64,000 nucleotides of DNA, from the NCBI GenBank assembly GCA_964634935.1, contig CAZWJT010000004.1:30915-94914 (forward strand), read 5' to 3'. Of this stretch, positions 3,433-63,351 are shown piece by piece; within the stretch, counting starts at the first letter, position 1, and each line of letters opens with the position of its first letter. A program made the translations under genes and the position numbers. Origin of the DNA: an uncultured Planctomycetia bacterium. Its GTDB lineage: Bacteria; Omnitrophota; Gorgyraeia; Duberdicusellales; Duberdicusellaceae. A model generated the notes under the pieces. That model saw only the letters and a list, made by a program, of their open reading frames with translations. It searched no databases and was not told where the DNA came from.

Positions 3433-3469
3433 GGCATTGTTTCTCGTTTACCTACGAAAGGAAAAAAAT

Positions 3470-34681: not shown

Positions 34682-34685
34682 AGGT

Positions 34686-35720: not shown

Positions 35721-35725
35721 ATAGC

Positions 35726-39952: not shown

Positions 39953-39956
39953 AATT

Positions 39957-43478: not shown

Positions 43479-43486
43479 GAAAAACT

Positions 43487-44530: not shown

Positions 44531-44537
44531 TGACAAT

Positions 44538-45470: not shown

Positions 45471-45473
45471 ACT

Positions 45474-46406: not shown

Positions 46407-46415
46407 GGAGGCTAC

Positions 46416-47402: not shown

Positions 47403-47407
47403 CGCCG

Positions 47408-48118: not shown

Positions 48119-48201
48119 TCTTCCCGGAAAGTTTCAATAACGGTATGAAAAAAACCAAAACGGTGGTATACTTTATAGAATAACCCGGAGAATAAAAGTA
48201 A

Positions 48202-49395: not shown

Positions 49396-50212
49396 AAGAC
49401 ATTCCATAACCCAGCGATGGTTCAGCGGAAAAACTGCCCTGGTAACCGGAGCAAGCTCGGGCATCGGCAGAGCCATTGCCCATAAACTTCTTGGCTGGGG
49501 CACGGATGTTCTTGCGTGCGGTCGAGACACTACGGCCTTAGAATCGCTGCGCACTGATTCAAAGCAAACACCAGGCAAGATCATTGAAATCTTTTCCGCT
49601 GACTTTTCCCAGCCTCATCAACTCCATGAGACAGCCATACGTATAAAAAGCAACCACCGCATTGACCTGCTCATTAATAATGCCGGCTTAAGCGACATGC
49701 GCAATTTCATACGGCAACCCTTTGATAGTATTACCGCCCTTGAATATGTGAATATCGGCGCAGTCATCTTTCTTTGTCATATATTTCTCCCATCTTTGAC
49801 CGGAAGAAAAGGAACTGGAATTCTTAACCTCGGTTCAACCGCTTCATTTTTTGCAACTCCTGGTTCCGCGCTCTACGGAGCCTCTAAACATTTCATTCTG
49901 GGATTTACCGATGCACTTCACCAGGAGATGCTTGCGCAGAATGTTCATGTCACCGGACTTTACCCTGGAACAACCCACTCGAAATTTCTTGAACGAGCAA
50001 CAGCCGGACGGTATTCAGCATGGAAAAACGCAATGGATGCATCTGTGGTCGCTGAACAAGGCTTGCATGGATTGGCCAGGAATAAAATTCGGGTCATACC
50101 AGGAATAAGCAATCGAATTAAAGTTAGCATTGCATCGTTGGTGCCCCCTGCTATAATTCTCCAAAAAATCTACAAGGACCTTTCGTGTTACCAGAATCAG
50201 CCTCATGTATAA
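49388..50212 (+). CDS. SDR family oxidoreductase
   Basis: A TGASSGIGRA cofactor motif and a YGASK catalytic YxxxK. The start was set at ATG 49388, overlapping the DegT stop by 8 nt. Confidence 0.85.
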   Translation: MLKRHSITQRWFSGKTALVTGASSGIGRAIAHKLLGWGTDVLACGRDTTALESLRTDSKQTPGKIIEIFSADFSQPHQLHETAIRIKSNHRIDLLINNAGLSDMRNFIRQPFDSITALEYVNIGAVIFLCHIFLPSLTGRKGTGILNLGSTASFFATPGSALYGASKHFILGFTDALHQEMLAQNVHVTGLYPGTTHSKFLERATAGRYSAWKNAMDASVVAEQGLHGLARNKIRVIPGISNRIKVSIASLVPPAIILQKIYKDLSCYQNQPHV

Positions 50213-51326
50213 AAATATTCTGCGCTGGGGAAGAAGCTTTTTTCAGCCGTTGTATGTGATTTTTTTTGTTACGAACCGCTGCAACGCAGGATGCCCTATG
50301 TGTTTCTATGCCCAAAATATGCAAAAAAGCCTCCCGGATGAGAAAGAATTAACAGTAGAGGAATACGAGTGTATCGCCCGGAAAATGAAAACGATAAATG
50401 TGCTCGGTATCTCAGGAGGGGAACCTTTCTTGCGGCAGGACTTACCTGAAATCCTGCATGCCTTTTACCGGAATGCCTCGCCGCTCGTTGTGGACCTACC
50501 AACGAATGGATACTTCACTGAAACAATCACTCGCCACGTTGAACGCATCGCATCTCAATGTCCAAAAATGATTCTCGACCTCCAACTTTCGATCGATGGC
50601 CCGGAAGAAATTCATAATGCGATCCGAAAGCTTCCTGACGGATTCAAAAAACTTGAACAAACTTACGATGCGATGATCGCACTAAAAAATCGATACAAGA
50701 ATTTACGGATAAAAGCCTGCATCGTATACTCGGCGTATAACAAAAATCATATCCGCCAGTTGTTCCGGGTTCTGGATGAGAAATTTTCTCGGCTTGACCG
50801 CATTGTTTTTTCAGTAGTACACGGAACCACCTATAACCCAGAAGCATTGCGCTTTGAGTGGTCGGACTACTTCAAAGAATGTAAACACCTACGTTCTCGA
50901 TCGCGGGTACATAACATCTTCGACTTTCATTCGATCTTTACTATGGCGCTTCGCATTACTAAAAACCACTATCTAAAAAAATCGTTAATAAGAAAAGATT
51001 TTTTCCGCGTCTGTAAGGCAGGGAAAAGGGTCGTTGTGGTAAGTCCAACCGGAACAGTATTTCCCTGCGAACCGCTCTGGGAGGAAGTGGGAAACTTGCG
51101 CACAAACAACTACGATCTTAAGCAGATCATACATTCACCTTCCATGGCGCAGTTTCAGCAAAAAATCAAAAATAAAAGCTGTAACTGTCACTGGGGAATT
51201 CCGATGACAAACGCACTTCTATACAGTCCACGCTATTATCCAAGAATAGCCTATGAAGCAAGCAGCATTTTTCTCCGTAGTATCACTAAAGAAATACCTG
51301 CCGAATCCAGCATTCCACCAGAATAA
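50205..51326 (+). CDS. Radical SAM protein with C-terminal auxiliary Cys cluster (SPASM/twitch-like)
   Basis: NRCNAGCPMC CX3CX2C and ISGGEPFLRQD, with a C-terminal CKAGKRVVVVSPTGTVFPCEPL...CNCHWG. Confidence 0.85.
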   Translation: MYKNILRWGRSFFQPLYVIFFVTNRCNAGCPMCFYAQNMQKSLPDEKELTVEEYECIARKMKTINVLGISGGEPFLRQDLPEILHAFYRNASPLVVDLPTNGYFTETITRHVERIASQCPKMILDLQLSIDGPEEIHNAIRKLPDGFKKLEQTYDAMIALKNRYKNLRIKACIVYSAYNKNHIRQLFRVLDEKFSRLDRIVFSVVHGTTYNPEALRFEWSDYFKECKHLRSRSRVHNIFDFHSIFTMALRITKNHYLKKSLIRKDFFRVCKAGKRVVVVSPTGTVFPCEPLWEEVGNLRTNNYDLKQIIHSPSMAQFQQKIKNKSCNCHWGIPMTNALLYSPRYYPRIAYEASSIFLRSITKEIPAESSIPPE

Positions 51327-51427: not shown

Positions 51428-52252
51428 ATGGAAAATTTCCAGGATTTTGCTTTGTTGAAAAAAAAAGCTCTTTCGGTACGCCGTCAAGTATTGGAAATGA
51501 TCGCTTGCGCAGGAAAAGGACACATTGGAGGATCCCTCTCATGCGTTGAAATCATCACCACTCTCTACCTTGCTCCAATATTAAACCACAACCCCGGTAA
51601 TCCCTCCTGGCAGGACCGCGATCGTTTCATTCTCAGCAAAGGCCACGCCGCTGCGACACTCTATGCGGTACTCGCCGAATGCGGCTATCTTGAAAAAGAA
51701 AAACTCTGTTCTTATCAGAAAGAAAAGTGCAGTTTACTTGGCCATCCGGATCGCAGGACATCTGGCATAGAGATTGACTCAGGGTCACTAGGACATGGAC
51801 TAGGAATAGCGACGGGAATAGCGCTTGGAGCAATGAAACTCAACAAGGATTACTTCACCTTTGCTCTCTTAGGAGATGGGGAATGTCACGAAGGAACCAT
51901 ATGGGAAGCGGCACTCTTTGCGGCCCAGCATAACCTGTATAATTTGATTGGTATTATCGACCACAATCAACTCTGCGTGACCGATTTTCTTCGAGACTGT
52001 ATATCCGTAGACCCTCTTGCAGCGAAATGGCAAGCATTCGGCTGGGAAGTCCAAGAAGTGGACGGCCACTCAATTCCCCAGCTTATGAATGTATGCCTAG
52101 ATGCGAAAAAGAAAAAAAATCAAAAACCGCTTATGATTATCGCGCATACAATAAAAGGAAAAGGCGTTTCGTTTATGGAAAATAAGATTGAATGGCATCA
52201 CCGGGTTCCCAAAAAAGAGGAACTCGAGCAAGCCCGAGACGAACTGAAATAA
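51428..52252 (+). CDS. Transketolase, N-terminal (TPP-binding) subunit
   Basis: GHIGGSLSC...GDGECHEG...IIDHNQL. It is a split-gene transketolase. Confidence 0.9.
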   Translation: MENFQDFALLKKKALSVRRQVLEMIACAGKGHIGGSLSCVEIITTLYLAPILNHNPGNPSWQDRDRFILSKGHAAATLYAVLAECGYLEKEKLCSYQKEKCSLLGHPDRRTSGIEIDSGSLGHGLGIATGIALGAMKLNKDYFTFALLGDGECHEGTIWEAALFAAQHNLYNLIGIIDHNQLCVTDFLRDCISVDPLAAKWQAFGWEVQEVDGHSIPQLMNVCLDAKKKKNQKPLMIIAHTIKGKGVSFMENKIEWHHRVPKKEELEQARDELK

Positions 52253-52254
52253 CC

Positions 52255-53217
52255 ATGATTCCCAATAACCATACAATTGACATCCGCGATGCTTTTTTTG
52301 ACATGCTGTACCAATACGCACAAACCGACACAAAAGTCATCGTTCTAACGGCAGACATGGGAGCACAAAGCCTGGAGCAATTGAAGCATGACTTTCCTCG
52401 CCAATATATCAATACGGGGATCGCTGAACAAAATATGATCAGCATTGCAGCTGGGTTAGCACTCTCTGGATGTAAAGTATTTGCGTATGGGATAATTCCT
52501 TTTGTCACATTTCGATGTTTTGAACAAATTAAGGTTGACCTGTGCTCCATGCATCTTCCTGTTACGATCATCGGCGTAGGACCAGGGGTGACTTACGCAA
52601 GCGACGGACCGACACATCATGGAACACATGATATTTCGGTGATGCGGGTACTCCCCGGGATAACGATCTTAAATCCGTCTGACTCAGCTCTTGCGCAAGA
52701 GTGCGCAAACATCTGTTACCAAACACCAAGCCCCACGTATGTGCGTATCGATAAAGGAATATTTCCTCAGCTGTATTCATCTCCTGTCGATTGCACACCT
52801 GGCTTACACCTGTTGAGAAAAGGCACCGATTTGACGATTATCGCTACTGGAACAATAGTGCATACAGCATTGGATGTTGCCAAAAAGCTCGATAACTTCT
52901 CGATTTCTTCTTCAGTAATTGATCTCTATAGAATAAAACCCCTCAACGCACAAAAACTAATAGAATATTGTTCACAAACCAACGCCGTGGTAAGTTTGGA
53001 AGAACATACTCTTGCTGGAGGTCTCGGAAGCATCATCGCTGAATGTTTGAACGATCATCAAATGACTCTGCCGCTCAAGCGCATCGGATTTCCTGATGAG
53101 CACTGCTTATGTGCGGGCGAAAGGAAAACAATCCAGGAAAATTATGGTTTATCCACAGAATTAATCTGTAATACGATTACTTCTTGGCATACGACATGTA
53201 AACAAAAGAAAGGTTGA
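52255..53217 (+). CDS. Transketolase, C-terminal (pyrimidine-binding + TK_C) subunit
   Basis: The start is ATG 52255, 3 nt after the N-subunit stop. The subunit has typical Tkt C-terminal half motifs. Confidence 0.9.
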   Translation: MIPNNHTIDIRDAFFDMLYQYAQTDTKVIVLTADMGAQSLEQLKHDFPRQYINTGIAEQNMISIAAGLALSGCKVFAYGIIPFVTFRCFEQIKVDLCSMHLPVTIIGVGPGVTYASDGPTHHGTHDISVMRVLPGITILNPSDSALAQECANICYQTPSPTYVRIDKGIFPQLYSSPVDCTPGLHLLRKGTDLTIIATGTIVHTALDVAKKLDNFSISSSVIDLYRIKPLNAQKLIEYCSQTNAVVSLEEHTLAGGLGSIIAECLNDHQMTLPLKRIGFPDEHCLCAGERKTIQENYGLSTELICNTITSWHTTCKQKKG

Positions 53218-53223
53218 AGTGGT

Positions 53224-54009
53224 ATGGATTTGGGTATAACTGGGAAAAAGGCATTAGTGACCGGAGGAACTCATGGAATCGGACAAGCAACAGCCCTCTT
53301 GCTTGCTCAAGAAGGCTGTTCAGTCGCCGTATGTTCACGAACAAAGAACAGAATTGATGAAACGCTACAGAAGCTTGAACGCTATAGCGTTCAAACGCTT
53401 GGAATTCAGGCCGATCTGACCAACGAACAAAACATCCAGAACGTTTTTAAAACAATGATTCAGGAGTGGGGCACCATCCATATTCTGATCAACAATGTTG
53501 GAGGCGGAGGAAGATGGGGAAGAGAGATCGTGGAAGAAACTGAAGAAAAAGTCTGGCTTGAGGTATATAATAAGAACGCGCTTACCGCTATCCGCTGCAC
53601 GAACCTTGCATTGCCGTATATGCGTAAACAAAAATGGGGAAGAGTAGTCACCGTTACTTCCATCTTTGGCAGAGAAGCGGGGGGTAATCCCTGGTTCAGC
53701 ATGGCCAAGAGCGCACAAACAGCCCTGATGAAATCCTTGGCAAAAAAACGTTATCTGTCACGGGAAAATATCACTTTCAATAGTGTTGCCCCTGGAGCAA
53801 TTATGATCCCCGATACTGGATGGAGTGCGCTTGCAAAAGAAAATCCCGGTGAGATGAAAAAATTTATTGATGAACACCTTCCGTCCAATCGCTTTGGAAC
53901 GCCGGAAGAAGTTGCACAGGTTATCGCTTTTTTATGTTCAGAAAAAGCAAGCTTAATCAACGGTGCATCAATTCCTGTGGACGGAGGACAAGGTAATAGC
54001 AATCTCTAG
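53224..54009 (+). CDS. SDR family oxidoreductase (3-oxoacyl-ACP reductase-like)
   Basis: TGGTHGIGQA and NNVGGGG motifs, with S-Y-K catalytic residues. Confidence 0.9.
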   Translation: MDLGITGKKALVTGGTHGIGQATALLLAQEGCSVAVCSRTKNRIDETLQKLERYSVQTLGIQADLTNEQNIQNVFKTMIQEWGTIHILINNVGGGGRWGREIVEETEEKVWLEVYNKNALTAIRCTNLALPYMRKQKWGRVVTVTSIFGREAGGNPWFSMAKSAQTALMKSLAKKRYLSRENITFNSVAPGAIMIPDTGWSALAKENPGEMKKFIDEHLPSNRFGTPEEVAQVIAFLCSEKASLINGASIPVDGGQGNSNL

Positions 54010-54015
54010 AATACA

Positions 54016-54684
54016 ATGCCCGAAGTATCGCTTGTCCTCTTTACACTCAATGAAATAGATGGAATGCGGGCAATTATGCCGCAGATCAAAAAAGAATGGT
54101 ACGACGAATTGCTCATTGTTGATGGCGGATCAACCGACGGAACCATTGAATACGCCAAAGAACACGGTTATTTCATCTTTGTCCAGAAAGAAAAAGGAGC
54201 GGGGGCTGCTTTTCGTGAAGCCATGCAGCGAGTAACAAAAGAAATAGTCGTTATTTTTAGTCCAGACGGAAACTCACTCCCTGAGGCGATTCCGCTTCTC
54301 GTCGAAAAGATACACGAGGGCTTTGACCTGGTTATTGCTTCGCGATATCTCAAAGGGGCAAAAAGCCTTGATGATGATCCTGTGACTGCTTTTGGTAATT
54401 GGATGTTTACTCATCTTACCAATCTTTTATTTCACTCACGCTGCACCGACACCCTGGTAATGTATCGCGCTTTTCGGAAAAAGATCCTCAACACTCTTGC
54501 GATCAACACAAAAACTCCTTGTTGGGGAAGCTTAATGCTCATGCGTGCAATCAAACAAAAGCTCTCGATTGCGGAAATTCCTGCAAGCGAACCAAAACGG
54601 ATCGGAGGAACCCGCAAAATGAATCCCTTGCGGAACGGAATCGCGGAATTATATATTTTATTCCGTGAATGGATAAAATGCTAA
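54016..54684 (+). CDS. GT2 family glycosyltransferase (short, DPM1-like), paralog of 41764-42474
   Basis: LVLFTLNEIDGMRAIMPQI...LLIVDGGSTDGTIEYAKEHGY... Confidence 0.8.
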   Translation: MPEVSLVLFTLNEIDGMRAIMPQIKKEWYDELLIVDGGSTDGTIEYAKEHGYFIFVQKEKGAGAAFREAMQRVTKEIVVIFSPDGNSLPEAIPLLVEKIHEGFDLVIASRYLKGAKSLDDDPVTAFGNWMFTHLTNLLFHSRCTDTLVMYRAFRKKILNTLAINTKTPCWGSLMLMRAIKQKLSIAEIPASEPKRIGGTRKMNPLRNGIAELYILFREWIKC

Positions 54685-54688
54685 AGCG

Positions 54689-55654
54689 ATGACGAAACAA
54701 AAAATTCTTATTTGCGGCGGAACAGGATTTATCGGACGAAACTGTGCAGAATATTTCCAGCATAATAAGAAATTTGAAATTTTTGCAACATACCATAGAC
54801 GAACACCGCCAGAAATACCTGGAATAACCTTCCTCAAGGTAAACCTTACCAACCCTAAGGAAGTAGAGCGGGCTCTCGCCGGAAAAGACGTTATTATTCA
54901 GGCAGCCGCATCCACATCTGGAGCGCACGTCATTGTAAATCATCCCGAATTGCATGTAACCGATAACGCAATAATGAACTCGCTTATTTTCCGCGCAGCT
55001 CTGCGGCATAAACCGAAAAATTTAGTTTTTTTTAGCTGTAGCGTTCTTTATCACTCAAGTAAAAAATCACTTAAAGAAACTGACTTTAATCCGAATCAAG
55101 CTCTCTATCCGGCTTATTTCGGAGTAGGCTGGACAAAAATCTATCTTGAAAAAATGTGCGAATTTTATTCCAGAATAGGAAAAACAAATTATACGGTCAT
55201 TCGACATTCAAACATCTATGGACCTCATGATAAATTCGACCCAGGAGAATCACATGTATGCGCTGCGCTTATCGCAAAGGCCGCTCAGGCTTCCCGGACC
55301 ATCACTCTTTGGGGCAAAGGACAAGAAAAGCGAGACCTGCTTTACATAGATGACCTGGTACGTTTTATTGCATTGGTTATTCAGAAGCAGCGTGAGAAAT
55401 TCTCGCTCTATAACGTTGGCAGTGGTTTTTGTATCTCCATAGAGGATCTTGCAAAAACAATTATTTCACTCAGCGCAAAACCTTTACAGGTCCGCTATGA
55501 TACCCAGAAAATATCCCTAGATACCTGTGTATGTCTCAACATCGAAAAAGCTCGCCGGCAATTGGGATGGAAGCCAAAAATTGCGCTCACAGAAGGCTTA
55601 GCCAAAACCATTGCTTGGTATAACAAATCTCGCAGTTACAAGGAAAATAGATGA
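54689..55654 (+). CDS. NAD-dependent epimerase/dehydratase (extended SDR, Fcl/GME-like)
   Basis: A CGGTGFIGRN Rossmann motif and YGPHDKFDP...LWGKGQEKRDLLYIDD, resembling GDP-sugar epimerase/reductases. Confidence 0.85.
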   Translation: MTKQKILICGGTGFIGRNCAEYFQHNKKFEIFATYHRRTPPEIPGITFLKVNLTNPKEVERALAGKDVIIQAAASTSGAHVIVNHPELHVTDNAIMNSLIFRAALRHKPKNLVFFSCSVLYHSSKKSLKETDFNPNQALYPAYFGVGWTKIYLEKMCEFYSRIGKTNYTVIRHSNIYGPHDKFDPGESHVCAALIAKAAQASRTITLWGKGQEKRDLLYIDDLVRFIALVIQKQREKFSLYNVGSGFCISIEDLAKTIISLSAKPLQVRYDTQKISLDTCVCLNIEKARRQLGWKPKIALTEGLAKTIAWYNKSRSYKENR

Positions 55655-57111
55655 ACCAAAAAATCATTCTTGCCACAGTAAACGCAAAGAAAGATCTCTA
55701 TTCAGTCACCGCAGACGAATTCTCGGCGATAGCGCCCAATGTTCAACTTGGCCTTCTCGGTGCGTATATCAAATCAAAAAATATCAACGTGCGAATTATC
55801 GATTCTGAAGAAGAACGACTTTCCATCGACGATTTAATCAATCTCGTGAAAAAGGAAAAACCTTTGCTCTTGGGAATTGTTGCTACGGGCGCAAATCCAT
55901 CTTCTTCTACAATGGTCATGGCCGGAATCGTTGATTTTTTTAAAAAATTCAACATGACAAACTCCCCGGTAAAAACTTTTATCTGGGGACCTCACCCCAC
56001 AGTGCTTCCTGAACGCTCACTCAAAGAAACCCAGGCAAGCTTTATCGTACGCGGAGAAGGGTATGAAACTATTGTCAACTTATTTTATGCTTTACACCGG
56101 GGACAGGAAATCAACCAAATCAAGGGGCTTTCTTACATTGAAAACCAGAACGGTTCAATCCAATATTGCCACACCCCCGATGCCGAACTAATTAAAAATC
56201 TTGATTCTCTCCCGATGATTGACTGGCAAGCGATGAACCCGTCAAAATACCGGGCTCATAATTGGCACTGCTTTGGAAACCTTGAGAACCGCACGCCCTA
56301 CGCAATTATCTGGACAAGCTTTGGGTGCCCTTTCCAATGCAATTACTGTTGTATTAATAATCTCTTCGGCAGAAGGATACAGCGTTTCCGCAGTATCAAA
56401 AATGTGATAGAGGAGATAAGCCTTCTCGTCGAGACCTATAAGGTCAAGAACATTAAAATTCTTGATGAGCTCTTTGTCGTCAATCCCCAGCGCATCGAAG
56501 AATTCTGTGACCGCCTGGAAGAAAAAAGATATTCTCTCAATATGTGGTCATATTCCCGCGTCGACACCATATCGGAACGCCTCCTGAAACGGCTCAAAAC
56601 AGTGGGGATGAATTGGATTTCTTATGGTTTTGAAACCGCCACTCCTCAGATGCTTGACAATATAGAAAAAGGATGCAAACGAGATGTCGATGCCGTAATC
56701 AAAATGACCCAAGAAGCCGGAATTTCAATTTGCGCGGATGTAATGTTTGGACTCCCTGACGACACCATCCAAACCATGGAACAAACCTACGAGTTTCTGG
56801 TGCGCCATAATTTTGAATGGGTTAATATGTATCCGATGTTCGCTTACCCAGGAACCAAGCTCTATGCTGAGTCAAGCGAACCGGAATCATGGAAAACGTA
56901 CGCACTCTATGGAGCAGACTGCATTCCCATGGGTACAAAACATCTCAGCCCTCGGGCAGTACTGAAGTTTCGCGATGAAGCCTTCAGCAGATATTTTGGA
57001 CGCCCTGAATATCTCGCTATGATCGAAAAGAAATTTGGGGTGTCTACCCGAGAACACATTCAACGGATGATTGCCATCCCTCTACGACGCAAACTGCTGG
57101 AACAACAATGA
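55651..57111 (+). CDS. B12-binding domain radical SAM protein (class B)
   Basis: 486 aa with an N-terminal B12-binding-like domain and a TSFGCPFQCNYCC CX3CX2C. It is coupled to the neighbouring genes on both sides by ATGA overlaps. Confidence 0.85.
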   Translation: MNQKIILATVNAKKDLYSVTADEFSAIAPNVQLGLLGAYIKSKNINVRIIDSEEERLSIDDLINLVKKEKPLLLGIVATGANPSSSTMVMAGIVDFFKKFNMTNSPVKTFIWGPHPTVLPERSLKETQASFIVRGEGYETIVNLFYALHRGQEINQIKGLSYIENQNGSIQYCHTPDAELIKNLDSLPMIDWQAMNPSKYRAHNWHCFGNLENRTPYAIIWTSFGCPFQCNYCCINNLFGRRIQRFRSIKNVIEEISLLVETYKVKNIKILDELFVVNPQRIEEFCDRLEEKRYSLNMWSYSRVDTISERLLKRLKTVGMNWISYGFETATPQMLDNIEKGCKRDVDAVIKMTQEAGISICADVMFGLPDDTIQTMEQTYEFLVRHNFEWVNMYPMFAYPGTKLYAESSEPESWKTYALYGADCIPMGTKHLSPRAVLKFRDEAFSRYFGRPEYLAMIEKKFGVSTREHIQRMIAIPLRRKLLEQQ

Positions 57112-59387
57112 TGCGTAATCGCTCCCTGCTCGGGATTTTTTTTCTCGTAGGAGTTTTTGTCACTATCCTGCATATCGATATCATGATCCACAAGAAGCTT
57201 CCCTTCTCTCACGATACATTCCAATACTTCCAACAACAATATGTTTATTTTAATGAATTCATCACACAACGCTCAATACCATTGTGGTTTCCTTTTGTCT
57301 CCCAGGGTTTTGTAGGAAACTTTCATATAACCGGACAGTTAACCATGGCATTGCCCGTGCAATACTTAGTGGGAATTTTGTTTCCCGACATAAATTATTA
57401 TTATTTATTCCACCTAGGAATCTGGATTGAAGAAATGTTCTTCCTTTTGGGCGTAATCCTGCTAAGCTCATTCTATTATAAGAACAAAAAAACAATACTA
57501 TTCACCGCAATCACTCTCTTAGGAACAAACATCTGGTATCCGCAGATCTGGTGGAACTTTCATTTATTCTATTGGATGCCACTTACTTTATATGGCGTTC
57601 ATCGTTTCCTCAAGGAGCAAAAAATATCTTATCTCATACTTGCCTCTTTAACATTCTCGCTTACGGTTCTTGGAAACTTCATCTACTGTATTATCTTTGC
57701 CTTATTTATTCTGACAATTTATTATACGCTCTACGCTTGTTTCCATTGGAAGGAAATACTTGTTGCCGATTGGAAAAAAATACCGATAAAACATTATCTC
57801 TCATTCTTGCTCATTCTGTGCGTGCTGGCAATCAGCTTTCTATTCATAACTGTTGCCATTGATCAAATCGATTATCTACAACAAAATCGCAACACAACCG
57901 GCAAGAACACCCTCCAAACCTTTATGACCTATGGAGGCTCTCTGGGATTGCATAAATACCGAGAAATTCTCCGCCGTTATAGTTCTCCAGAAAATATTAC
58001 GCGAGATATAAATCTCTTTGCTGGGTTTTTCTTAATTCCTTTTGCCGCATTTACAGCGTTTTATTGCCGGAAAAAAATATCCTATGTAATTGCGGCCACT
58101 GCACTTGTGGTCTTCTTTTTCAGCATCGGCTCATGGATATCAGTTCTATTCTATTACTTATTTCCCGGTGGAAGTTTTTTCCGGCACATTGGATTAACGG
58201 CACCCGTTTTTAAGGTGCTCTTAGTCTTTTATGCCGGTTTTGGGTTCGAAGAATTTTGCCAGCGCGTTTCATCTTCCCGTACGCCAATTCTTGTGTTATT
58301 ACTCTCTCAGATAATACTCCTGGGGTGGTTACTCTATAAACCGTGGTTTCCGCCGCAAGAATATTTTTTCAATATCGTAAGTCCGGAAAACCGCAAACTT
58401 CTAAAAATGACTCTCTACGGAATTCTCTCTCTGAATGTAGTGGTTCTTTCGTGGTTTTTTCTTAGAAAAATGCCAAAAAATTTCCTGATCTATCTTCTCT
58501 TGGGGCTCGTTTCTCTTGATATGTTCACCTATAAATACTCTCTCATCCCGCTACGCATGCCCAAAGCTTCACCGGTATTGCTTGAGCTTTTTAAGCCATA
58601 TCGGTATGAATTCCCTCCAACGCGATTGATGAATACAAATATGGCAGTAGAAGACAATCAGCGTCTGCAATCTTTCTATTCAACCCCTTTTACTGGGGCA
58701 CGTTACAATACCATTGAATCGTTTCTCTTTATAGATTCAGCCATATCACCATTTCGCTCTGATTTTCTCCTTAAGCCACTAAAAAAGTATTTTGAGATGA
58801 TCCAGACATACCCCAATAAAAACGGGGCGTATGAAAAATATTCAGGCATTGATTACCCGAAGCTCAGTGTTTTTTCAAAACTGCACATCTTTCCAGGAGA
58901 AAAAGAGATAGGGACTGTTCTTGCTAATCCTGTTTTTGAGGGAAATGTGCTCTTTGCGCTGCAAAATGACTTTGCTCCGCTTGAATTTCCCGATAAACCC
59001 GAAGCAACCGAGTATTTCAACCAAAATAATTCTCCGCTCTTTACATACGAACGTATCCCGGCGCTTATCTCTATCAAACAGTTCAGCTACAATACATTGA
59101 AGCTTGACGTTACCACAGAAATAAACCAGAAAAATTATTTTTTGTACTACGCAGATGTTTTTCATCCTTATTGGACCGCCATCGTAAACGGGAAAAAAAC
59201 ACCGGTAATCCGCGCAAATATCGCCTATAAAGCGATCCCCATTCCTTCTGGGATTGCGAACGTAGAATTCCGATTTTCCGATTTGCGCTACCGCATATCA
59301 GCATGGACCCAGATTACAGTAATTCTGGCCTTATTGGGAAGTTGCATTTTTATCTTTTGGCGGAAACTGGTAGTGGAGAAAAACTGA
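57108..59387 (+). CDS. YfhO-family GT-C membrane glycosyltransferase
   Basis: 759 aa with about 13 TM helices, a large extracytoplasmic C-terminal domain with the YfhO-like motif FHPYWTAIVNGKKTPVIRANIAYKAIPIPSGIANVEFRF, and a terminal TM helix. Confidence 0.7.
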   Translation: MMRNRSLLGIFFLVGVFVTILHIDIMIHKKLPFSHDTFQYFQQQYVYFNEFITQRSIPLWFPFVSQGFVGNFHITGQLTMALPVQYLVGILFPDINYYYLFHLGIWIEEMFFLLGVILLSSFYYKNKKTILFTAITLLGTNIWYPQIWWNFHLFYWMPLTLYGVHRFLKEQKISYLILASLTFSLTVLGNFIYCIIFALFILTIYYTLYACFHWKEILVADWKKIPIKHYLSFLLILCVLAISFLFITVAIDQIDYLQQNRNTTGKNTLQTFMTYGGSLGLHKYREILRRYSSPENITRDINLFAGFFLIPFAAFTAFYCRKKISYVIAATALVVFFFSIGSWISVLFYYLFPGGSFFRHIGLTAPVFKVLLVFYAGFGFEEFCQRVSSSRTPILVLLLSQIILLGWLLYKPWFPPQEYFFNIVSPENRKLLKMTLYGILSLNVVVLSWFFLRKMPKNFLIYLLLGLVSLDMFTYKYSLIPLRMPKASPVLLELFKPYRYEFPPTRLMNTNMAVEDNQRLQSFYSTPFTGARYNTIESFLFIDSAISPFRSDFLLKPLKKYFEMIQTYPNKNGAYEKYSGIDYPKLSVFSKLHIFPGEKEIGTVLANPVFEGNVLFALQNDFAPLEFPDKPEATEYFNQNNSPLFTYERIPALISIKQFSYNTLKLDVTTEINQKNYFLYYADVFHPYWTAIVNGKKTPVIRANIAYKAIPIPSGIANVEFRFSDLRYRISAWTQITVILALLGSCIFIFWRKLVVEKN

Positions 59388-60874
59388 TGTGGAAAACGCT
59401 TGGCACTAAAAAAATTCTAAAAATTACCCCACTGATACAAAGCGGGTTTTTAATTCTCCTTACACTGGTTGTATTCTGGCCAAGTTTTTTTCATGTATTT
59501 CGCAATGACGAATGGCACTTTTTCTTTATTTCCCGCTTTGAAAATTTGGATTTTTCTTACATCCTAAATCACCTGGACTGGCAATTACAACTCGGCCATG
59601 ACCGGCTCTTATTCCGCCCCTTGCACCATACCGATATCGCACTAAACCGCGTGCTCTTTGATATCCACTACAGTGGTCCGCATATTCTGAATTTCATAAA
59701 ACACCTAGGCGTTGTATTTGCCCTCTGGAAACTCCTTAGCCAGACAAACCCAGGTTTGCCGGCATATCTTTTTGCCATGCTTTTTTCGGTTCTCTCGCTT
59801 GGATCTGATGCTGTATTCTGGCCACACGTAAGTGGCTATCTCTATGTATCTCTCTTTACCATTCTTGCGATTATTCTGTTACGAAAAAGTTTAACCCAAG
59901 AAACACCTTCAAAGAAAAGCCTGAGGCTCATATCGCTCTGGACGCTTCTGGCAATGTTCTCGAATGAATCGGGACTTATTTTGCCTTTTGTTCTAACCGG
60001 AATGTGCTTTATTCTCTTAAGGTCAGCTCAGAAAAAATATTTTCTTTCCTACATAACCCACACAGCGTTTATTCCACTGATTGCCTGGAGTAGCTGCTAC
60101 GGCATCCATCTATTCCTGGCATACCCGAACTGGAATATAGGATTTCAGTCGTATCTGATCCCTCTCTGGAAAATACCGAGAAATTTGTTCCGTTTTCTTT
60201 TCATGATAGTTTTTGGCATAACTATGCCTGTTTTCTCATACCCTCTCCTTGGAGATATCGTACGCTTTCTTGTGATACCGCCAGCGAAAAGAATACTCCA
60301 GGCGTGCTGCAGTGTATTCCTGGCTGCGGTTCTTATCCGTAAAACAAAAGAAAACAGAAACCATATCTTCTGCGCGTTGTTTCTTCTTATGGCAGCAGGA
60401 TTTATTATTACCGCAGGACGCTCGGCGTATGTCGACTCTTTGCTCTCAGAAAGAAAAATTGACAGCCACCATGTGTATTTTACCAGCATGGCCGCAATCT
60501 GGTTACTGTCAGAACTCACCCAGGCAAAAAACCGAAAAAGAAAAAATATGGTTCTCTTTCTTTTAATACTTGGAATTATGGCTCACAGCGCAAAAACGCA
60601 TTCGCTGGGAAACGAAATCACTCAAAAAACCGCCCCGCTTAAAAATTACTTTGACGCGGTAGCTTCCTTTGTAAAGCATCATAAGGATACGCCAAATTTT
60701 TCTTTCTTTATGCAGGAAAGGCCGCCAAAAACTCCTGTATTTTATTGGGAATCGGAACATTGTATTGATGGATTGTTTTTCCGTTATCTCAATCCGGAAA
60801 AACCGCTCTATTGGCTTTCTTATGATTTAAAAACCCAGGCTCTCACTGCACGGAAAAACGCACAACTTCAATAA
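59387..60874 (+). CDS. Polytopic membrane protein (GT-C-like / unknown)
   Basis: The start ATG 59387 overlaps the stop of the YfhO gene by 1 nt (TGATG). The product is about 495 aa with more than 10 hydrophobic helices. Confidence 0.5.
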   Translation: MWKTLGTKKILKITPLIQSGFLILLTLVVFWPSFFHVFRNDEWHFFFISRFENLDFSYILNHLDWQLQLGHDRLLFRPLHHTDIALNRVLFDIHYSGPHILNFIKHLGVVFALWKLLSQTNPGLPAYLFAMLFSVLSLGSDAVFWPHVSGYLYVSLFTILAIILLRKSLTQETPSKKSLRLISLWTLLAMFSNESGLILPFVLTGMCFILLRSAQKKYFLSYITHTAFIPLIAWSSCYGIHLFLAYPNWNIGFQSYLIPLWKIPRNLFRFLFMIVFGITMPVFSYPLLGDIVRFLVIPPAKRILQACCSVFLAAVLIRKTKENRNHIFCALFLLMAAGFIITAGRSAYVDSLLSERKIDSHHVYFTSMAAIWLLSELTQAKNRKRKNMVLFLLILGIMAHSAKTHSLGNEITQKTAPLKNYFDAVASFVKHHKDTPNFSFFMQERPPKTPVFYWESEHCIDGLFFRYLNPEKPLYWLSYDLKTQALTARKNAQLQ

Positions 60875-60889: not shown

Positions 60890-61660
60890 CTAAAAGACTG
60901 ATTTTGGTTTCTTAGCGATAAAAAGCGGGCATCGAAAGATACGCAAACGGTGTAAAAAAAGGTAGAGGAGAGAAAGGAGAGTTTTTAAACCATAGATTGA
61001 ACTGGCAAAAAATTTTATTGATGATGCTTCGGTAAAGTAACGGACCGGCATCGGAATATCGCCCAAAACAAAACCATGATGCACTGCCTGGATAAGAAAT
61101 TGCGTATCAAAAACAAAATCATTGTCGTTCCGTTCAAATGCGATTACTTCTAAAACTTCCCGGCGATAAGCGCGAAATCCCGAATGAAAATCCGCTAAAT
61201 TCTGCCCTAAACACATGTTTTCAACAAAAGTAAGGAAACGATTTGCAAGGTATTTATAAACCGGCATTCCGCCCTTTAAACATTCACGCCGGGTTCTCAC
61301 CCGAGCACCCAAGACTACATCGCAAATACGCAATCGCAAAATAGTTACAGCCACAGAGATAAGCCTGCTATCGTACTGATAATCAGGATGGATCATTATT
61401 ATATAATCCGCGCCGTGCTCCAAGGCATACCGGTAGCATGTTTTTTGGTTTGCCCCATACCCTTGATTTTGGGAATGCACATATACGGATAAACCAAGTT
61501 TTTTTGCAATTTCAACGGTATTGTCGCTACTTGCATCGTCTACAAGAATAATCTCATCAACAACACCATGCGGAATATCAGCAACAGTCTTTTCTAGGGT
61601 CTTAGCCGCGTTATACGCGGGCATAATCGCTACCACTTTTCCGTTTGATTGCGTATCCAT
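60890..61660 (-). CDS. GT2 family glycosyltransferase (DPM1/GtrB-like, no TM anchor)
   Basis: [14 protein letters not shown]...[12 protein letters not shown]...HPDYQYD (DxD-like). Confidence 0.85.
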
Positions 61661-61773
61661 AAAATTTGTTTTAGTGTATTATAATCGTAAGTATCAAGAA
61701 TTACAAGCGCCTACCACAAAGTACACCTGAATCGCTTGTAATTGTTACTTTGCTTCTATATAATACAATAACT

Positions 61774-63351
61774 ATGCTGAATAATGCCATCAGTGAAAAA
61801 AAACCGAGGAATCGAAAACTCCTCAGCGTAACGCTGGTTTATGTACTTCTTGGAATTTTACTTCTCCCTGCGTACCAGCATCAAATCAACCCTGACGGCA
61901 TTTCTTATATCAATATTGCCCAGCAATATCTTTCCGGGAGATTTCAAGATGCAATTAACGGCTGGTGGGGACCGCTTTTTTCCTGGTTACTTCTTCCGTT
62001 TCTCGCCATAGGAGTTACCCCGCTTATGGCTGCTAAGATCATTTCGCTGGGAATAGGAGCTTGGAGTATCTTTTGCCTTTCCAGACTCGGAAGCATTCTT
62101 GAAATCCCGATTCGTGCGCCTCTTGTTCTTACCTGCATGATCCCTTTCATCCTGTATTGTGCGTACTCGGTCATTACCCCTGATTTTCTTCTCGCGGTAA
62201 TATTTCTGTACTACCTTGGCACTGTATACCAGAAAAATTCTGCGCTCCAACCAACACGCAGTGTTCTTTGTGGAGTCTGGGGGGCTGCTTTGTATCTTTG
62301 TAAATCATATGGATTTGTTTTCTTCCTAATCCATTTTACGCTCGTTTCAGGATACCGATTGTTCAGTTCAAAACAACCCCTTCAGCGCTCAAAAATAGTG
62401 CTTCATTTTCTCTTAACCATCACGGTATTTTTTGCGCTCAGCGGTATATGGATCGGACTCATCAGCTGGAAATACCACCGGCTTACCATTGGTGCTGCTG
62501 GAACATATAACTTTCGCCTCGTTGGACCAAAATCCCAAGGACAAGCCGTGCATTCACAAGGATTTCTCCCAATACCAAATCAAGCCGCAACAAGCGCATA
62601 TGAAGATCCTTCCTATTTTCCGACCCAACCTTGGAATCCGTTTACTTCCTGGTCTGAATTCAGACATCTCTTGAGAGTCATAGAGAATAACTCGATTGAA
62701 CTGATAAAGACACTTCAAAGATTTTCGGCTTTCTCTCTGTTGCTGATTTGCGGCACAGCTATTTCCATCGCGAAAAATTTGTGGTGGGGAAAGAAAATCC
62801 AGAAAAATATAGTTTTTATTGCCGCAAGCGGCGTACTCTATTCAATAGGATTCCTGCTCTTAATCATTGAAGAGCGCTATTTCTGGGGAATTGGATTCCT
62901 GCTGTTTTTCTTGGCACTACGGGCATCGCAAGCCCTTGCCGCGCAAACGTCTCCGCGTTTGAACGGAAAACGCGCACTCGTTGCGTTGATCTTATTGAGC
63001 TTCACGCTCATGCCCACGCAATATCTACTACGGAACCTTCAGACAAAAAAAGATATTTATGAAACAAGCTTGCTTCTTAAAAATAGGTATGCTGTGTCCG
63101 GAAATATCGCATCAAACGCGTTCTGGCATGAATCTTTGTACATTGCCTATCACCTTAGGGGAAAATACCTAGGCCAAAAATTGAAAGGCCTTTCCGGGCA
63201 GAAACTTCGCGATGCCCTGCAAAGTCTAAAAATAGACTATTACTTTGTCTGGAGCAAAACCAACTCTGAATTTGAAACTCTTGAAGGATACCCAGAAATT
63301 ACCCAGGGCGCAATACCCTATTTACGGGTTTATCGACTATGCAAAATCTGA
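61774..63351 (+). CDS. Polytopic membrane protein, putative GT-C glycosyltransferase (PMT/ArnT-like)
   Basis: The start was taken as ATG 61774, 9 nt after a TATAAT at 61759-61764; the listed start at 61750 is TTG. There are more than 10 TM helices and an N-terminal DGxSY-like loop (INPDGISYIN). Confidence 0.5.
   Translation: MLNNAISEKKPRNRKLLSVTLVYVLLGILLLPAYQHQINPDGISYINIAQQYLSGRFQDAINGWWGPLFSWLLLPFLAIGVTPLMAAKIISLGIGAWSIFCLSRLGSILEIPIRAPLVLTCMIPFILYCAYSVITPDFLLAVIFLYYLGTVYQKNSALQPTRSVLCGVWGAALYLCKSYGFVFFLIHFTLVSGYRLFSSKQPLQRSKIVLHFLLTITVFFALSGIWIGLISWKYHRLTIGAAGTYNFRLVGPKSQGQAVHSQGFLPIPNQAATSAYEDPSYFPTQPWNPFTSWSEFRHLLRVIENNSIELIKTLQRFSAFSLLLICGTAISIAKNLWWGKKIQKNIVFIAASGVLYSIGFLLLIIEERYFWGIGFLLFFLALRASQALAAQTSPRLNGKRALVALILLSFTLMPTQYLLRNLQTKKDIYETSLLLKNRYAVSGNIASNAFWHESLYIAYHLRGKYLGQKLKGLSGQKLRDALQSLKIDYYFVWSKTNSEFETLEGYPEITQGAIPYLRVYRLCKI

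What the first reader, a model, noticed from the sequence alone, without database searches (positions are those of the whole stretch)
55651..59387. Recurrent module: B12-binding radical SAM translationally coupled to a YfhO-family GT-C glycosyltransferase, present twice in the window
The pair 55651-57111 / 57108-59387 (plus strand) and the pair 7819-9111 / 9108-10940 (minus strand) are each joined by a 4-nt ATGA overlap. Each pair couples a class-B radical SAM enzyme (a putative methyltransferase or rearrangement enzyme) to a YfhO-like membrane protein. YfhO enzymes transfer sugars from undecaprenyl-phosphate carriers to extracytoplasmic polymers. The established partner of YfhO is a CsbB-type GT2 (the B. 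subtilis csbB-yfhO three-component glycosylation system); a B12-radical-SAM partner is not standard. Class-B radical SAMs methylate unactivated carbons in sugars and lipids (GenK, Fom3, HpnP/HpnR). The module may therefore C-methylate or otherwise tailor a lipid-linked glycan or a membrane lipid before transfer.
Basis: partly seen in the sequence, partly recalled or inferred. Interest (0 to 1): 0.7.

Follow-up and report, generated by a model that had tools for sequence, protein, structure and literature searches.

The report
Radical SAM enzymes beside GT-C glycosyltransferases
The flagged gene pair is the end of a conserved operon that probably builds an unusually modified sugar on a lipid carrier and attaches it to the cell surface; a vitamin-B12-type radical enzyme in such a pathway is unusual, and the claimed "second copy" is only a loose look-alike.

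Summary
The ORFs, coordinates and both ATGA overlaps are exact. rSAM1 (55651-57111) is a B12-domain radical SAM. M1 (57108-59387) has a GT-C fold and is a divergent YfhO-superfamily protein: it fails Pfam's cut-off but shows full-length profile homology. The "second copy" does not hold as a repeat. M2 (9108-10940) also has a GT-C fold but is unrelated to M1 at sequence and profile level and is not YfhO. rSAM2 has no detectable B12 domain, the gene order is reversed, and neither partner's relatives keep this pairing. The conserved unit is larger than the pair. GT2, SDR epimerase and rSAM1 co-occur in 21 of 22 loci from several phyla, usually next to polytopic membrane proteins of varying family: M1, some that match PMT_2, and several that match no family. 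The M1 partner is confined to Omnitrophota. [quoted passage not shown] The chemistry is unknown; the nearest relatives are HpnJ, BchE and AprD4 rather than methylases. This is a new variant of a known kind and of moderate interest.

The parts
50205..51326 (+). Radical SAM/SPASM gene at the head of the conserved block
   Evidence: Pfam Radical_SAM and SPASM. Orthologs of 52-58% identity sit upstream of the same block in L010, L014, L015 and L029.
51428..53217 (+). Split transketolase-like ThDP enzyme: N-terminal subunit 51428-52252, C-terminal subunit 52192-53217
   Evidence: Pfam Transketolase_N, then Transket_pyr plus Transketolase_C. NCBIfam transketolase 268 and 175 bits, below cut-offs. 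Conserved in front of the SDR-GT2-epimerase-rSAM1 block in Omnitrophota loci.
53224..54009 (+). Classical short-chain dehydrogenase/reductase
   Evidence: Pfam adh_short_C2, E 2e-49. Orthologs of 59-69% identity sit directly before the GT2 in Omnitrophota loci.
54016..54684 (+). Small GT2 of 222 aa with no TM segment; probable polyprenyl-phosphate sugar synthase (the CsbB/GtrB-type role)
   Evidence: Pfam Glycos_transf_2. Best NCBIfam relatives are AglJ (115 bits), Dol-P-hexose transferase (84), PgfS, ArnC and PpgS, all below equivalog cut-offs. PDB hits: DPMS 5mlz E 1.6e-9, and ArnC. Orthologs of 48-71% identity accompany rSAM1 orthologs in 21 of 22 loci.
54689..55654 (+). Extended SDR 'epimerase/reductase', joined to rSAM1 by an ATGA overlap
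   Evidence: Pfam Epimerase, E 1.5e-42. Best NCBIfam match is GDP-L-fucose synthase, 134 bits against a 500 cut-off. ATGA at 55651-55654. Co-occurs with rSAM1 orthologs.
55651..57111 (+). rSAM1: B12-binding-domain radical SAM enzyme, no predicted TM segments (cytoplasmic location inferred)
   Evidence: Pfam B12-binding 34.8 bits and Radical_SAM 64.6 bits. CX3CX2C at C226/C230/C233 is invariant. Nearest families are HpnJ (167 bits against 577) and BchE (153 against 481). Nearest solved structures are AprD4, QCMT and OxsB. Orthologs are 57-70% identical in Omnitrophota.
57108..59387 (+). M1: divergent YfhO-superfamily GT-C membrane protein. TM module is about residues 1-480, the extracytoplasmic domain 480-725 and a C-terminal TM helix 726-756. 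D36 is invariant after TM1.
59387..60874 (+). M3: polytopic membrane protein coupled to M1 (TGATG). It has an 'NDEWHF' acidic motif after its first TM. Possible second GT-C, unverified.
   Evidence: ORF 59303-60874. The probable start is 59387, overlapping M1's stop by 1 nt, in agreement with the gene call in L001. About 6 TM segments. No Pfam family. A homolog lies directly after the rSAM1 ortholog in L016.
60890..61660 (-). Second polyprenyl-phosphate sugar synthase-like GT2, convergent with the operon
   Evidence: Pfam Glycos_transf_2. NCBIfam PpgS 72 bits, AglJ 66 bits, below cut-offs.
61750..63351 (+). Polytopic membrane protein (about 8 TM) of unknown family; possible further GT-C, unverified
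   Evidence: No Pfam or NCBIfam hit. TM count. N-terminal 'NPDGISY' motif after TM1.
9108..10940 (-). M2: GT-C-fold membrane protein of a very rare family. Not YfhO by any threshold test. D39-D40 lie after TM1, with D40 invariant.
7819..9111 (-). rSAM2: BchE/HpnJ-like radical SAM, downstream of M2 and joined by ATGA; no detectable B12-binding domain
   Evidence: Pfam Radical_SAM only, even at E<=1. NCBIfam BchE 130 bits and HpnJ 123 bits, below cut-offs. 28% identical to rSAM1. CX3CX2C at C192. ATGA junction.

Best explanation

Proposed steps, all inferred:
1. A sugar precursor is made or remodelled by the split transketolase and the SDR at 53224.
2. The small soluble GT2 (54016) loads a sugar from a nucleotide donor onto polyprenyl phosphate.
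3. The extended SDR (54689) and the B12-domain radical SAM rSAM1 modify that sugar in the cytoplasm, either as the nucleotide sugar or as the lipid-linked sugar. Radical SAM enzymes need SAM and a reductant, which is the basis for placing this step before flipping.
4. After flipping by an unlinked flippase, the YfhO-like GT-C M1, and probably M3, transfers the modified sugar to an extracytoplasmic acceptor.

For the radical step I favour an HpnJ/AprD4-type radical rearrangement or dehydration whose keto or ene product is fixed by the partner SDR (about 0.4). C-methylation is about 0.3 and other chemistry about 0.3.

The M2-rSAM2 pair is a separate two-gene unit on the same theme (GT-C plus a SAM-using tailoring enzyme). 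It is not a copy of the first.

Shown here: the folds, the family relationships and the gene linkage. Inferred: substrates, order of steps, chemistry and cobalamin use.
For: Linkage:
- GT2_54016 and epimerase orthologs lie within the fetched flanks of rSAM1 orthologs (>=48% identity) in 21 of 22 loci. These come from Omnitrophota, 'Deltaproteobacteria' MAGs, Tagaea, Firestonebacteria and others.
- A large polytopic membrane protein lies within about 250 bp of that block in 14 of the 21 loci.
- M1 orthologs are that partner in six Omnitrophota genomes.
- Of ten non-M1 partners scanned, two pass the PMT_2 (GT-C) cut-off, one falls just below it, and three carry F5/8-C lectin domains.
- In L018 the rSAM1-M1 pair stays together even though the GT2 block is inverted several kb away.

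Component identities:
- GT2_54016's characterised relatives are all polyprenyl-phosphate sugar synthases.
- M1 and M2 have GT-C folds with an invariant Asp just after TM1.
- M1 is homologous to YfhO over its full length.

Chemistry hints:
- The best family matches are HpnJ, BchE and AprD4.
- One or two SDR-type enzymes always accompany rSAM1, as in the AprD4/AprD3 pairing.
- HpnJ acts on a lipid-linked sugar placed by the GT2 HpnI (PMC12324291).

Reference frame:
- Such systems consist of a GT-A C55-P-sugar synthase, an often unlinked flippase, and a GT-C that may be YfhO, PMT_2 or family-less. A soluble GT-A variant is known (PMC8035078).
- rSAM2 orthologs repeat the theme: GT2, then a roughly 480-aa membrane protein with 8-9 TM segments and a 'WWDEAEY' motif, then rSAM2, then an SDR.
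Against: - No biochemical data exist for any component.
- Every family match of rSAM1, the GT2 and the SDRs is far below its equivalog cut-off.
- No GtrA-type or Wzx-type flippase is recognisable in the locus. This is also true of the canonical csbB-yfhO locus.
- The M1 partner is not universal. In 15 of 22 loci something else follows rSAM1 (a 610-620-aa non-membrane protein, nucleotide-sugar genes, or an M3-like protein) or the contig ends there. More distant M1 relatives (26% identity) have no radical SAM neighbour.
- rSAM1 paralogs of about 40% identity sit inside nucleotide-sugar cassettes (GHMP kinase, NTP-transferase, DegT). This suggests the family may act on soluble nucleotide sugars, so the link to M1 may be only at pathway level.
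- A B12-like domain does not prove cobalamin use, as AprD4 shows.
Confidence: 0.6

Rival explanations
1. One reading: both pairs are copies of one module in which a cobalamin-dependent radical SAM C-methylates a lipid-linked glycan or lipid just before a YfhO enzyme transfers it.
For: - rSAM1 passes the Pfam B12-binding cut-off.
- Most characterised class-B enzymes are methyltransferases (PMC12931638).
- In the closest M2 relative (P0035, 44% identity, syntenic next to PEPCK) a class-I SAM methyltransferase overlaps the M2-like gene, and no radical SAM follows it as rSAM2 does in the window. This fits methylation as the accessory function.
Against: - M1 and M2 are unrelated families, and M2 is not YfhO.
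- rSAM2 has no detectable B12 domain.
- Methylase families score far lower for rSAM1 (HpnR 61, KedN5 61, TsrM-type 41 bits) than HpnJ (167) or BchE (153).
- The top solved relative, AprD4, is a cobalamin-free dehydratase.
- The constant SDR partners have no obvious role in a simple methylation.
Confidence: 0.2
2. Operon packing only. rSAM1 tailors a soluble nucleotide sugar used by cytoplasmic glycosyltransferases of the same 30-kb locus. Its position beside M1 has no specific functional meaning.
For: - About 40%-identical paralogs lie between an epimerase and a GHMP kinase in nucleotide-sugar cassettes, many without any adjacent GT-C.
- The window locus holds nine radical SAM genes and many overlapping junctions, so some adjacency to a membrane protein is expected.
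- M1 is replaced by other genes in many rSAM1 loci.
Against: - The GT2, epimerase and rSAM1 genes are retained together across phyla, usually abutting polytopic membrane proteins, a few of which match the GT-C family PMT_2.
- rSAM1 and M1 stay adjacent in L018 although the rest of the block is inverted.
- At least ten further M1 relatives and rSAM1 orthologs report identical longest-contig lengths, implying shared contigs. This is an inference.
Confidence: 0.15
3. The radical SAM enzymes act on the lipid rather than the sugar, for example by methylating or cross-linking the polyprenyl carrier or a membrane lipid. Alternatively they modify the protein or peptide acceptor of the GT-C enzyme.
For: - Both rSAM1 and rSAM2 hit the ladderane-lipid B12 radical SAM family at 95 bits.
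- Distant M2-family members sit next to a SPASM-type radical SAM, a class often acting on peptides.
Against: - No lipid-synthesis genes or precursor-peptide genes were noted beside either pair in the domain scans.
- The conserved partners of rSAM1 are sugar enzymes: GT2, SDRs and a transketolase.
Confidence: 0.05

Closest known systems
Multi-component (three-component) transmembrane glycosylation systems: CsbB/GtcA/YfhO of B. subtilis, S. aureus and Listeria; GtrB/GtrA/GtrC (PMC5836110, PMC8035078)
   Same: - A GT-A/GT2 related to polyprenyl-phosphate sugar synthases, encoded near a GT-C-fold membrane transferase.
- M1 is a full-length remote homolog of YfhO.
- The flippase is unlinked, as in csbB-yfhO.
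   Different: - The GT2 is short (222 aa) and lacks the C-terminal TM helices of CsbB/GtrB. It resembles the soluble GT-A variant instead.
- M1 fails Pfam's YfhO cut-off.
- A B12-domain radical SAM, two SDRs and a split transketolase are conserved within the operon. None of these is a described component of such systems.
Streptococcus mutans Pgf machinery: pgfS-pgfM1-pgfE-pgfM2 (bioRxiv 10.1101/2022.10.10.511621)
   Same: - One operon with a GT2 (PgfS appears among GT2_54016's NCBIfam matches), an SDR epimerase and two YfhO-like membrane proteins.
- This is the same parts list as GT2-epimerase-M1-M3.
   Different: - Pgf has no radical SAM.
- PgfE is a GalE-type UDP-4-epimerase, whereas the SDR here is nearest to GDP-fucose synthase.
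- M3 is not demonstrably related to M1.
Hopanoid side-chain tailoring by HpnI (GT2), HpnK and HpnJ (B12-type radical SAM) (PMC12324291)
   Same: - A GT2 puts a sugar on a lipid, and a BchE/HpnJ-clade radical SAM then rearranges that lipid-linked sugar.
- HpnJ is rSAM1's best NCBIfam match.
   Different: - The score of 167 bits is far below the HpnJ cut-off of 577.
- No squalene-hopene cyclase or HpnH/G genes appeared in the domain scans of the locus.
- The carrier here is presumably polyprenyl phosphate, and the product is handed to a GT-C.
AprD4/AprD3 (radical SAM diol dehydratase plus NADPH reductase) in apramycin biosynthesis
   Same: - AprD4 is the best solved-structure relative of rSAM1 (6fd2, 83 bits with the family profile).
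- A radical SAM is paired with an SDR-type reductase acting on a sugar.
   Different: - AprD4's B12-like domain does not use cobalamin.
- Its substrate is an aminoglycoside pseudodisaccharide, not a carrier-linked sugar.
- Only the radical SAM core aligns.
Tailoring of polyprenyl-phosphate sugars before GT-C transfer: ArnC/ArnD/ArnT and DprE1/DprE2 with Emb/Aft enzymes (own knowledge)
   Different: The tailoring enzymes there are a deformylase or an FAD oxidase/SDR pair, not a radical SAM. No sequence relationship was tested.

Membership tests
YfhO family (Pfam PF09586): M1 | Score at or above Pfam's gathering threshold (28.5 bits) | tested here: not met
   15.8 bits, over residues 657-724 only. 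Among 28 relatives, 10 hit at E<=0.01, always in the C-terminal 70-100 residues, and only P0016 passes (32.9 bits).
YfhO family (Pfam PF09586): M1 | Full-length homology to a genuine YfhO protein | tested here: met
   The M1 profile reaches 24,063 proteins at E<=1e-3. Of 42 sampled full-length relatives, 21 hit YfhO and nothing else. hhalign of that alignment against P0034 (YfhO, 76 bits) gives 98.8%, E 6.6e-17, over 601 columns.
GT-C fold glycosyltransferases: M1 | GT-C transmembrane fold with a conserved acidic residue in the first extracytoplasmic loop | tested here: met
YfhO family (Pfam PF09586): M2 | Any significant match to the YfhO profile or to a YfhO protein | tested here: not met
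   No Pfam or NCBIfam hit. Of 7 family members, none hits YfhO and one weakly hits PTPS_related. hhalign to P0034 gives 43.8% (inconclusive) and to the M1 superfamily 15%.
GT-C fold glycosyltransferases: M2 | GT-C transmembrane fold with a conserved acidic residue in the first extracytoplasmic loop | tested here: met
Cobalamin-dependent (class B) radical SAM: rSAM1 | CX3CX2C cluster motif plus an N-terminal B12-binding Rossmann domain | tested here: met
   C226/C230/C233 are invariant. PF02310 scores 34.8 bits against a 32.1 cut-off, over residues 19-144.
Cobalamin-dependent (class B) radical SAM: rSAM1 | Actual cobalamin binding and use | not testable with these tools
   AprD4, the closest solved relative, has the domain but is classed as not B12-dependent. 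No cobalamin riboswitch occurs in the window.
Cobalamin-dependent (class B) radical SAM: rSAM2 | N-terminal B12-binding domain | tested here: not met
   No PF02310 match even at E<=1. Alignments to B12-type families begin only around residues 77-92. CX3CX2C is present at C192.
HpnJ / BchE / named class-B equivalogs: rSAM1 and rSAM2 | Score at or above the NCBIfam equivalog cut-off | tested here: not met
   rSAM1: HpnJ 167.5 against 577.6, BchE 152.6 against 481. rSAM2: BchE 129.8, HpnJ 123.
Multi-component transmembrane glycosylation system | GT-A enzyme that forms a polyprenyl-phosphate sugar, encoded with the GT-C | tested here: inconclusive
   GT2_54016 lies two genes upstream of rSAM1. Its characterised relatives are AglJ, Dol-P-hexose transferase, DPMS, ArnC, PgfS and PpgS, but all score below cut-offs and no TM anchor is present. 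Activity was not tested.
Multi-component transmembrane glycosylation system | GtrA-type or Wzx-type flippase | tested here: not met
   No small 3-4 TM ORF and no recognisable flippase lies in 50-64 kb or beside M2. In known systems the flippase is often unlinked, so its absence here is not disqualifying.
'Recurrent module' (the same module twice in the window) | Both components homologous between copies, same gene order, and adjacency conserved for both | tested here: not met
   The rSAMs are 28% identical. The membrane proteins are unrelated. The order is reversed. Pair 2's adjacency is absent from all 5 M2-relative contexts and from about 14 rSAM2-ortholog contexts.

The most novel reading that the evidence does not exclude
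The conserved GT2-SDR-rSAM1 block performs radical chemistry on a sugar already attached to polyprenyl phosphate. Candidate reactions are an HpnJ-like ring contraction to a carbocycle, a deoxygenation, or a C-methylation. The result would be a non-canonical lipid-linked donor that GT-C enzymes of several families (YfhO-like M1, PMT_2-like, and possibly M3-like) install on the cell surface. This would be the first radical SAM component of a transmembrane GT-C glycosylation system, and it would be present in several bacterial phyla. The independent pairing of a second radical SAM lineage (rSAM2 orthologs) with a GT2, membrane proteins that carry a GT-C-like motif and an SDR would make it a general design.
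Probability: 0.3. Interest if true: 0.75.

Novelty: new variant of a known kind. Interest (0 to 1): 0.55.

Why it matters
Extracytoplasmic glycosylation through polyprenyl-phosphate sugars and GT-C enzymes decorates teichoic acids, O-antigens, arabinogalactan and surface proteins. The donors known so far are ordinary sugars or lightly modified ones.

A conserved radical-SAM/SDR tailoring block tied to the donor-forming GT2 would add new sugar chemistry to this pathway class. It would also give a functional handle on one clade of the more than 220,000 mostly uncharacterised B12-type radical SAM enzymes (PMC12931638). The four-gene set GT2, SDR, rSAM1 and GT-C is small enough to reconstitute heterologously.

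The work also assigns folds to two orphan membrane-protein families. M1's clade is a divergent YfhO branch. M2's family is a very rare GT-C family with only six relatives found.

Tried and rejected
2. Profile comparison of the M1 and M2 families to each other showed no relationship, so the duplicated-module idea was rejected.
3. I tested whether the roughly 270-aa N-terminal extensions of some M1-superfamily proteins (P0165, P0227) are fused GT2 domains, which would have been a Rosetta-stone link. They are not; they look like an extra TM segment plus an extracytoplasmic domain.
4. hhalign of M3, x61750 and the rSAM2-ortholog partner against the M2 family found nothing. Their GT-C status rests only on TM count and an acidic motif after TM1.
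5. The Foldseek afdb50 library, wanted to classify M2, was unavailable.
6. Literature searches for YfhO with radical SAM, for B12 radical SAM with GT-C or polyprenyl, and for Omnitrophota with radical SAM found no description of such a system.
7. No cobalamin riboswitch or other regulatory RNA is present.
8. There is no compositional sign of a genomic island, despite a tRNA-Arg at the locus start.
9. Promoter and terminator scans were at chance level overall. The sites bracketing M2-rSAM2 are only suggestive.
10. The organism name could not be retrieved. Assignment to Omnitrophota rests on the best hits only.

Full report
**1. What is in the sequence**

All four ORFs exist exactly as described.
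- rSAM1: 55651-57111, plus strand, 486 aa.
- M1: 57108-59387, plus strand, 759 aa.
- M2: 9108-10940, minus strand, 610 aa.
- rSAM2: 7819-9111, minus strand, 430 aa.

The ATGA overlaps are real. One lies at 57108-57111, followed by a second in-frame ATG at 57111. The other lies at 9111-9108 on the minus strand.

Two details weaken the idea of a special coupled pair.
- The same ATGA overlap joins the upstream epimerase to rSAM1 (55651-55654). ORF coordinates show further 4-nt overlaps at 33158-33161 and 41003-41006. M1 is in turn coupled to the next membrane protein by TGATG at 59385-59389.
- In the second pair the membrane protein comes first and the radical SAM second, the reverse of pair 1.

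**2. Family assignments**

*rSAM1.* It matches Pfam Radical_SAM and passes the B12-binding cut-off (34.8 against 32.1 bits). Its CX3CX2C motif is invariant.

*rSAM2.* It matches Radical_SAM only, with no B12-binding match even at E<=1. It belongs to the same broad BchE/HpnJ-like group and is 28% identical to rSAM1.

*Named families.* Neither enzyme reaches any equivalog cut-off.
- rSAM1's best NCBIfam scores are HpnJ 167 (cut-off 577), BchE 153, ApyD 113 and PhpK 99.
- HpnR and KedN5 score 61 and AprD4 scores 60.
- With the family profile, the best solved relatives are AprD4 (83 bits), the glutamine C-methyltransferase QCMT 9ccb (75), OxsB (49), CysS and TsrM.

*M1.* It scores only 15.8 bits on Pfam YfhO (cut-off 28.5), over its last 68 residues. 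Several further lines of evidence place it nearer to YfhO.
- A profile of its family reaches 24,063 proteins at E<=1e-3, with full-length matches.
- Half of a 42-protein sample of those relatives hits YfhO and nothing else.
- hhalign to a protein that clearly passes YfhO gives 98.8% probability over 601 columns.
- D36 is invariant and sits just after TM1.

M1 is therefore a divergent YfhO-superfamily GT-C protein.

**3. Conservation of pair 1**

M1's close family is confined to Omnitrophota MAGs, with 26-45% identity. rSAM1 orthologs are much better conserved, at 57-70% identity. Relatives of about 50% identity extend to other phyla.

In two MAGs the whole block is syntenic with window 51428-59387: transketolase N and C subunits, SDR, small GT2, epimerase, one or two B12 radical SAM genes, then M1.

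I compared window proteins against six-frame ORFs of 56 loci fetched from one genome per species. The results were as follows.
- Of 22 loci with an rSAM1 ortholog (>=48% identity), 21 also carry orthologs of GT2_54016 (48-71%) and of the epimerase. These are nearly always contiguous with rSAM1.
- The loci come from Omnitrophota, 'Deltaproteobacteria' MAGs, Tagaea, Firestonebacteria and others.
- M1 follows rSAM1 directly in six of the 22, all Omnitrophota.
- Elsewhere other large polytopic proteins abut the block, so that 14 of 21 loci have one within about 250 bp.
- Of ten such neighbours scanned, two pass PMT_2, one is just below the cut-off, three carry F5/8-C lectin domains, two carry TPR repeats (one of them also a PMT_2 hit), and three had no hit. 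Most show a DD, DE or ND motif right after TM1.
- In L018, rSAM1-M1 remain adjacent although the GT2 block is inverted several kb away.
- More distant M1 relatives (26% identity) have no radical SAM neighbour.
- Ten further M1 relatives and rSAM1 orthologs report identical longest-contig lengths. I read this as co-residence on the same contig, which is an inference.

**4. The GT2 partner is present**

GT2_54016 (222 aa, no TM segment) has only polyprenyl-phosphate sugar synthases among its characterised relatives. These are AglJ (115 bits), Dol-P-hexose transferase (84), PgfS, ArnC, PpgS, and the solved DPMS and ArnC structures. All score below cut-offs.

The GT2 is there, and it is the gene most tightly linked to rSAM1.

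Two further AglJ/PpgS-like GT2 genes (41764 and 60890, minus strand) and two further polytopic proteins (M3 and 61750-63351) lie in the same locus.

**5. Pair 2**

Neither partner's relatives keep this pairing.

*M2's relatives.*
- The two closest M2 relatives (44% and 41% identity) lack a radical SAM neighbour. The 44% relative is syntenic next to PEPCK.
- That 44% relative has a class-I SAM methyltransferase overlapping the M2-like gene's start.
- Three distant relatives (21-25% identity) are each preceded by one orthologous SPASM-like radical SAM.

*rSAM2's orthologs (39-58% identity, metagenome scan).*
- They never sit beside an M2-family protein.
- Several show this order: GT2, then a roughly 480-aa protein with 8-9 TM segments and an ArnT/PMT-like 'WWDEAEY' motif, then rSAM2, then an SDR epimerase.
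- Others show a small TM protein, then rSAM2, an epimerase and more B12-like radical SAM genes.

The exact pair is thus unique to this window. The theme of a radical SAM with an SDR, a GT2 and a polytopic membrane protein that may be a GT-C recurs in a second radical SAM lineage.

**6. Wider locus**

Window 30212-61660 is one long plus-strand glycan locus that starts just after a tRNA-Arg. GC content is uniform. It contains the following.
- Eight of the window's nine radical SAM genes, including a run of paralogs at 34611-41006.
- A TylF-like O-methyltransferase.
- A GDP-sugar-type cassette: HddA-like kinase, HddC/ManC-like nucleotidyltransferase, Fcl-like and RfbH-like enzymes, and a PDH-E1-like pair.

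In other genomes that cassette carries an rSAM1 paralog of about 40% identity between the epimerase and the kinase. The window lacks a paralog at that position.

**7. Mechanism**

*Shown here:* the folds, the family relationships and the gene linkage.

*Inferred:*
- To this is added a cytoplasmic tailoring unit of rSAM1 plus one or two SDRs, and in Omnitrophota also a split transketolase and a SPASM radical SAM.
- Radical SAM chemistry needs SAM and a reductant, so it presumably precedes flipping. GT-C active sites face outward.

Whether rSAM1 acts on the nucleotide sugar or on the lipid-linked sugar is open. The paralog group in nucleotide-sugar cassettes argues for the former. The tight GT2 linkage and the HpnI/HpnJ precedent (PMC12324291) argue for the latter.

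For the chemistry I lean to rearrangement or dehydration followed by SDR reduction, for two reasons:
- the nearest relatives are HpnJ, BchE and AprD4;
- an SDR always accompanies rSAM1.

Methylation remains a serious alternative.

**8. Comparison with known systems, and novelty**

The closest layout is the S. mutans Pgf operon: a GT2, a YfhO-like protein, an epimerase and a second YfhO-like protein. CsbB/YfhO systems are next closest.

The difference is the conserved radical SAM and SDR block. This block is not mentioned in the 2021 review of these systems, and glycosyltransferases are not mentioned in a 2026 review of B12 radical SAM enzymes. Four targeted literature searches found nothing on it.

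I rate this a new variant of a known kind with moderate interest (0.55). It is a real, conserved, multi-phylum association that can be tested with a small gene set. It lies inside a well-understood pathway logic, however, and the "module present twice" claim does not hold.

Noticed in passing
window 33158-41006: A run of radical SAM genes. It begins with a B12-like one (33158-34681). Five paralogous ~350-aa radical SAM genes follow, matching Fer4_12 with at most a weak SPASM hit: 34611, 35726 and 36755 are 36-38% identical to each other, and 38891 and 39903 are 51% identical. The run is interrupted by a 367-aa ORF (37788-38891) that has no Pfam hit and no CX3CX2C. With 50205, 55651 and 7819, the window holds nine radical SAM genes in 64 kb.
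   Followed up: partly
window 41764-42474, 54016-54684, 60890-61660(-) and 57108-59387, 59387-60874, 61750-63351: The locus holds three small AglJ/PpgS-like GT2 genes and three large polytopic membrane proteins. This suggests three parallel pairs of a lipid-phosphate sugar donor and a transferase. Only M1's fold was checked.
   Followed up: partly
window 42456-49395; loci L030-L059: A GDP-sugar-like cassette is widespread in Omnitrophota, Brocadiia, Desulfobacterales, Chloroflexi and Methanoperedens archaea. It comprises a PDH-E1-like pair or split transketolase, Fcl-like and GalE-like SDRs, an HddA-like kinase, a nucleotidyltransferase and an RfbH-like enzyme. Elsewhere it carries an rSAM1 paralog of about 40% identity between the epimerase and the kinase; the window's copy lacks it.
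   Followed up: partly
window 54689-55654 versus L009-L029: The window's epimerase is only 31-36% identical to the epimerase at the same position in other Omnitrophota loci. It is 47-54% identical to the one in 'Deltaproteobacteria' and Tagaea loci. The flanking GT2 and rSAM1 show the opposite pattern. This may reflect replacement of that gene.
   Followed up: no
L007 472-1656, L008 923-2155, L067 3-971: Distant M2-family GT-C proteins (P0038, P0039, P0040) are each directly preceded by an orthologous SPASM-like radical SAM with a C-terminal 'CPGCWxECD' motif. This is a second, independent pairing of a radical SAM with a GT-C.
   Followed up: partly
L004 3872-4603 / L005 4332-5063: In the closest, syntenic M2 relative (next to PEPCK), a class-I SAM methyltransferase with a hydrophobic C-terminus overlaps the M2-like gene's start, and no radical SAM follows that gene as rSAM2 does in the window.
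   Followed up: no
L021, L024, L025, L026, L028 (for example L024 7021-7797): In non-Omnitrophota loci an extra protein of about 255 aa with a 'VTGAxSGLGR' Rossmann motif (SDR-like) sits beside the GT2, epimerase and rSAM1 genes. The conserved block there is one GT2, two SDR-type enzymes and rSAM1.
   Followed up: partly
window 30066-30138: A tRNA-Arg (CCT) lies immediately upstream of the first gene of the 31-kb glycan locus. GC content is flat across the window, so there is no compositional island signal.
   Followed up: yes
window 3431-5647: A 738-aa ORF with about 13 predicted TM segments lies upstream of the S9 peptidase and near the M2 pair.
   Followed up: no
P0017, P0165, P0167, P0227, P0287 (M1 superfamily): Some M1-superfamily proteins carry N-terminal extensions of roughly 260 to 480 aa. 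P0017 has a precomputed PA14 hit. The extensions of P0165 and P0227 look like an extra TM segment plus an extracytoplasmic domain, not a GT2.
   Followed up: partly
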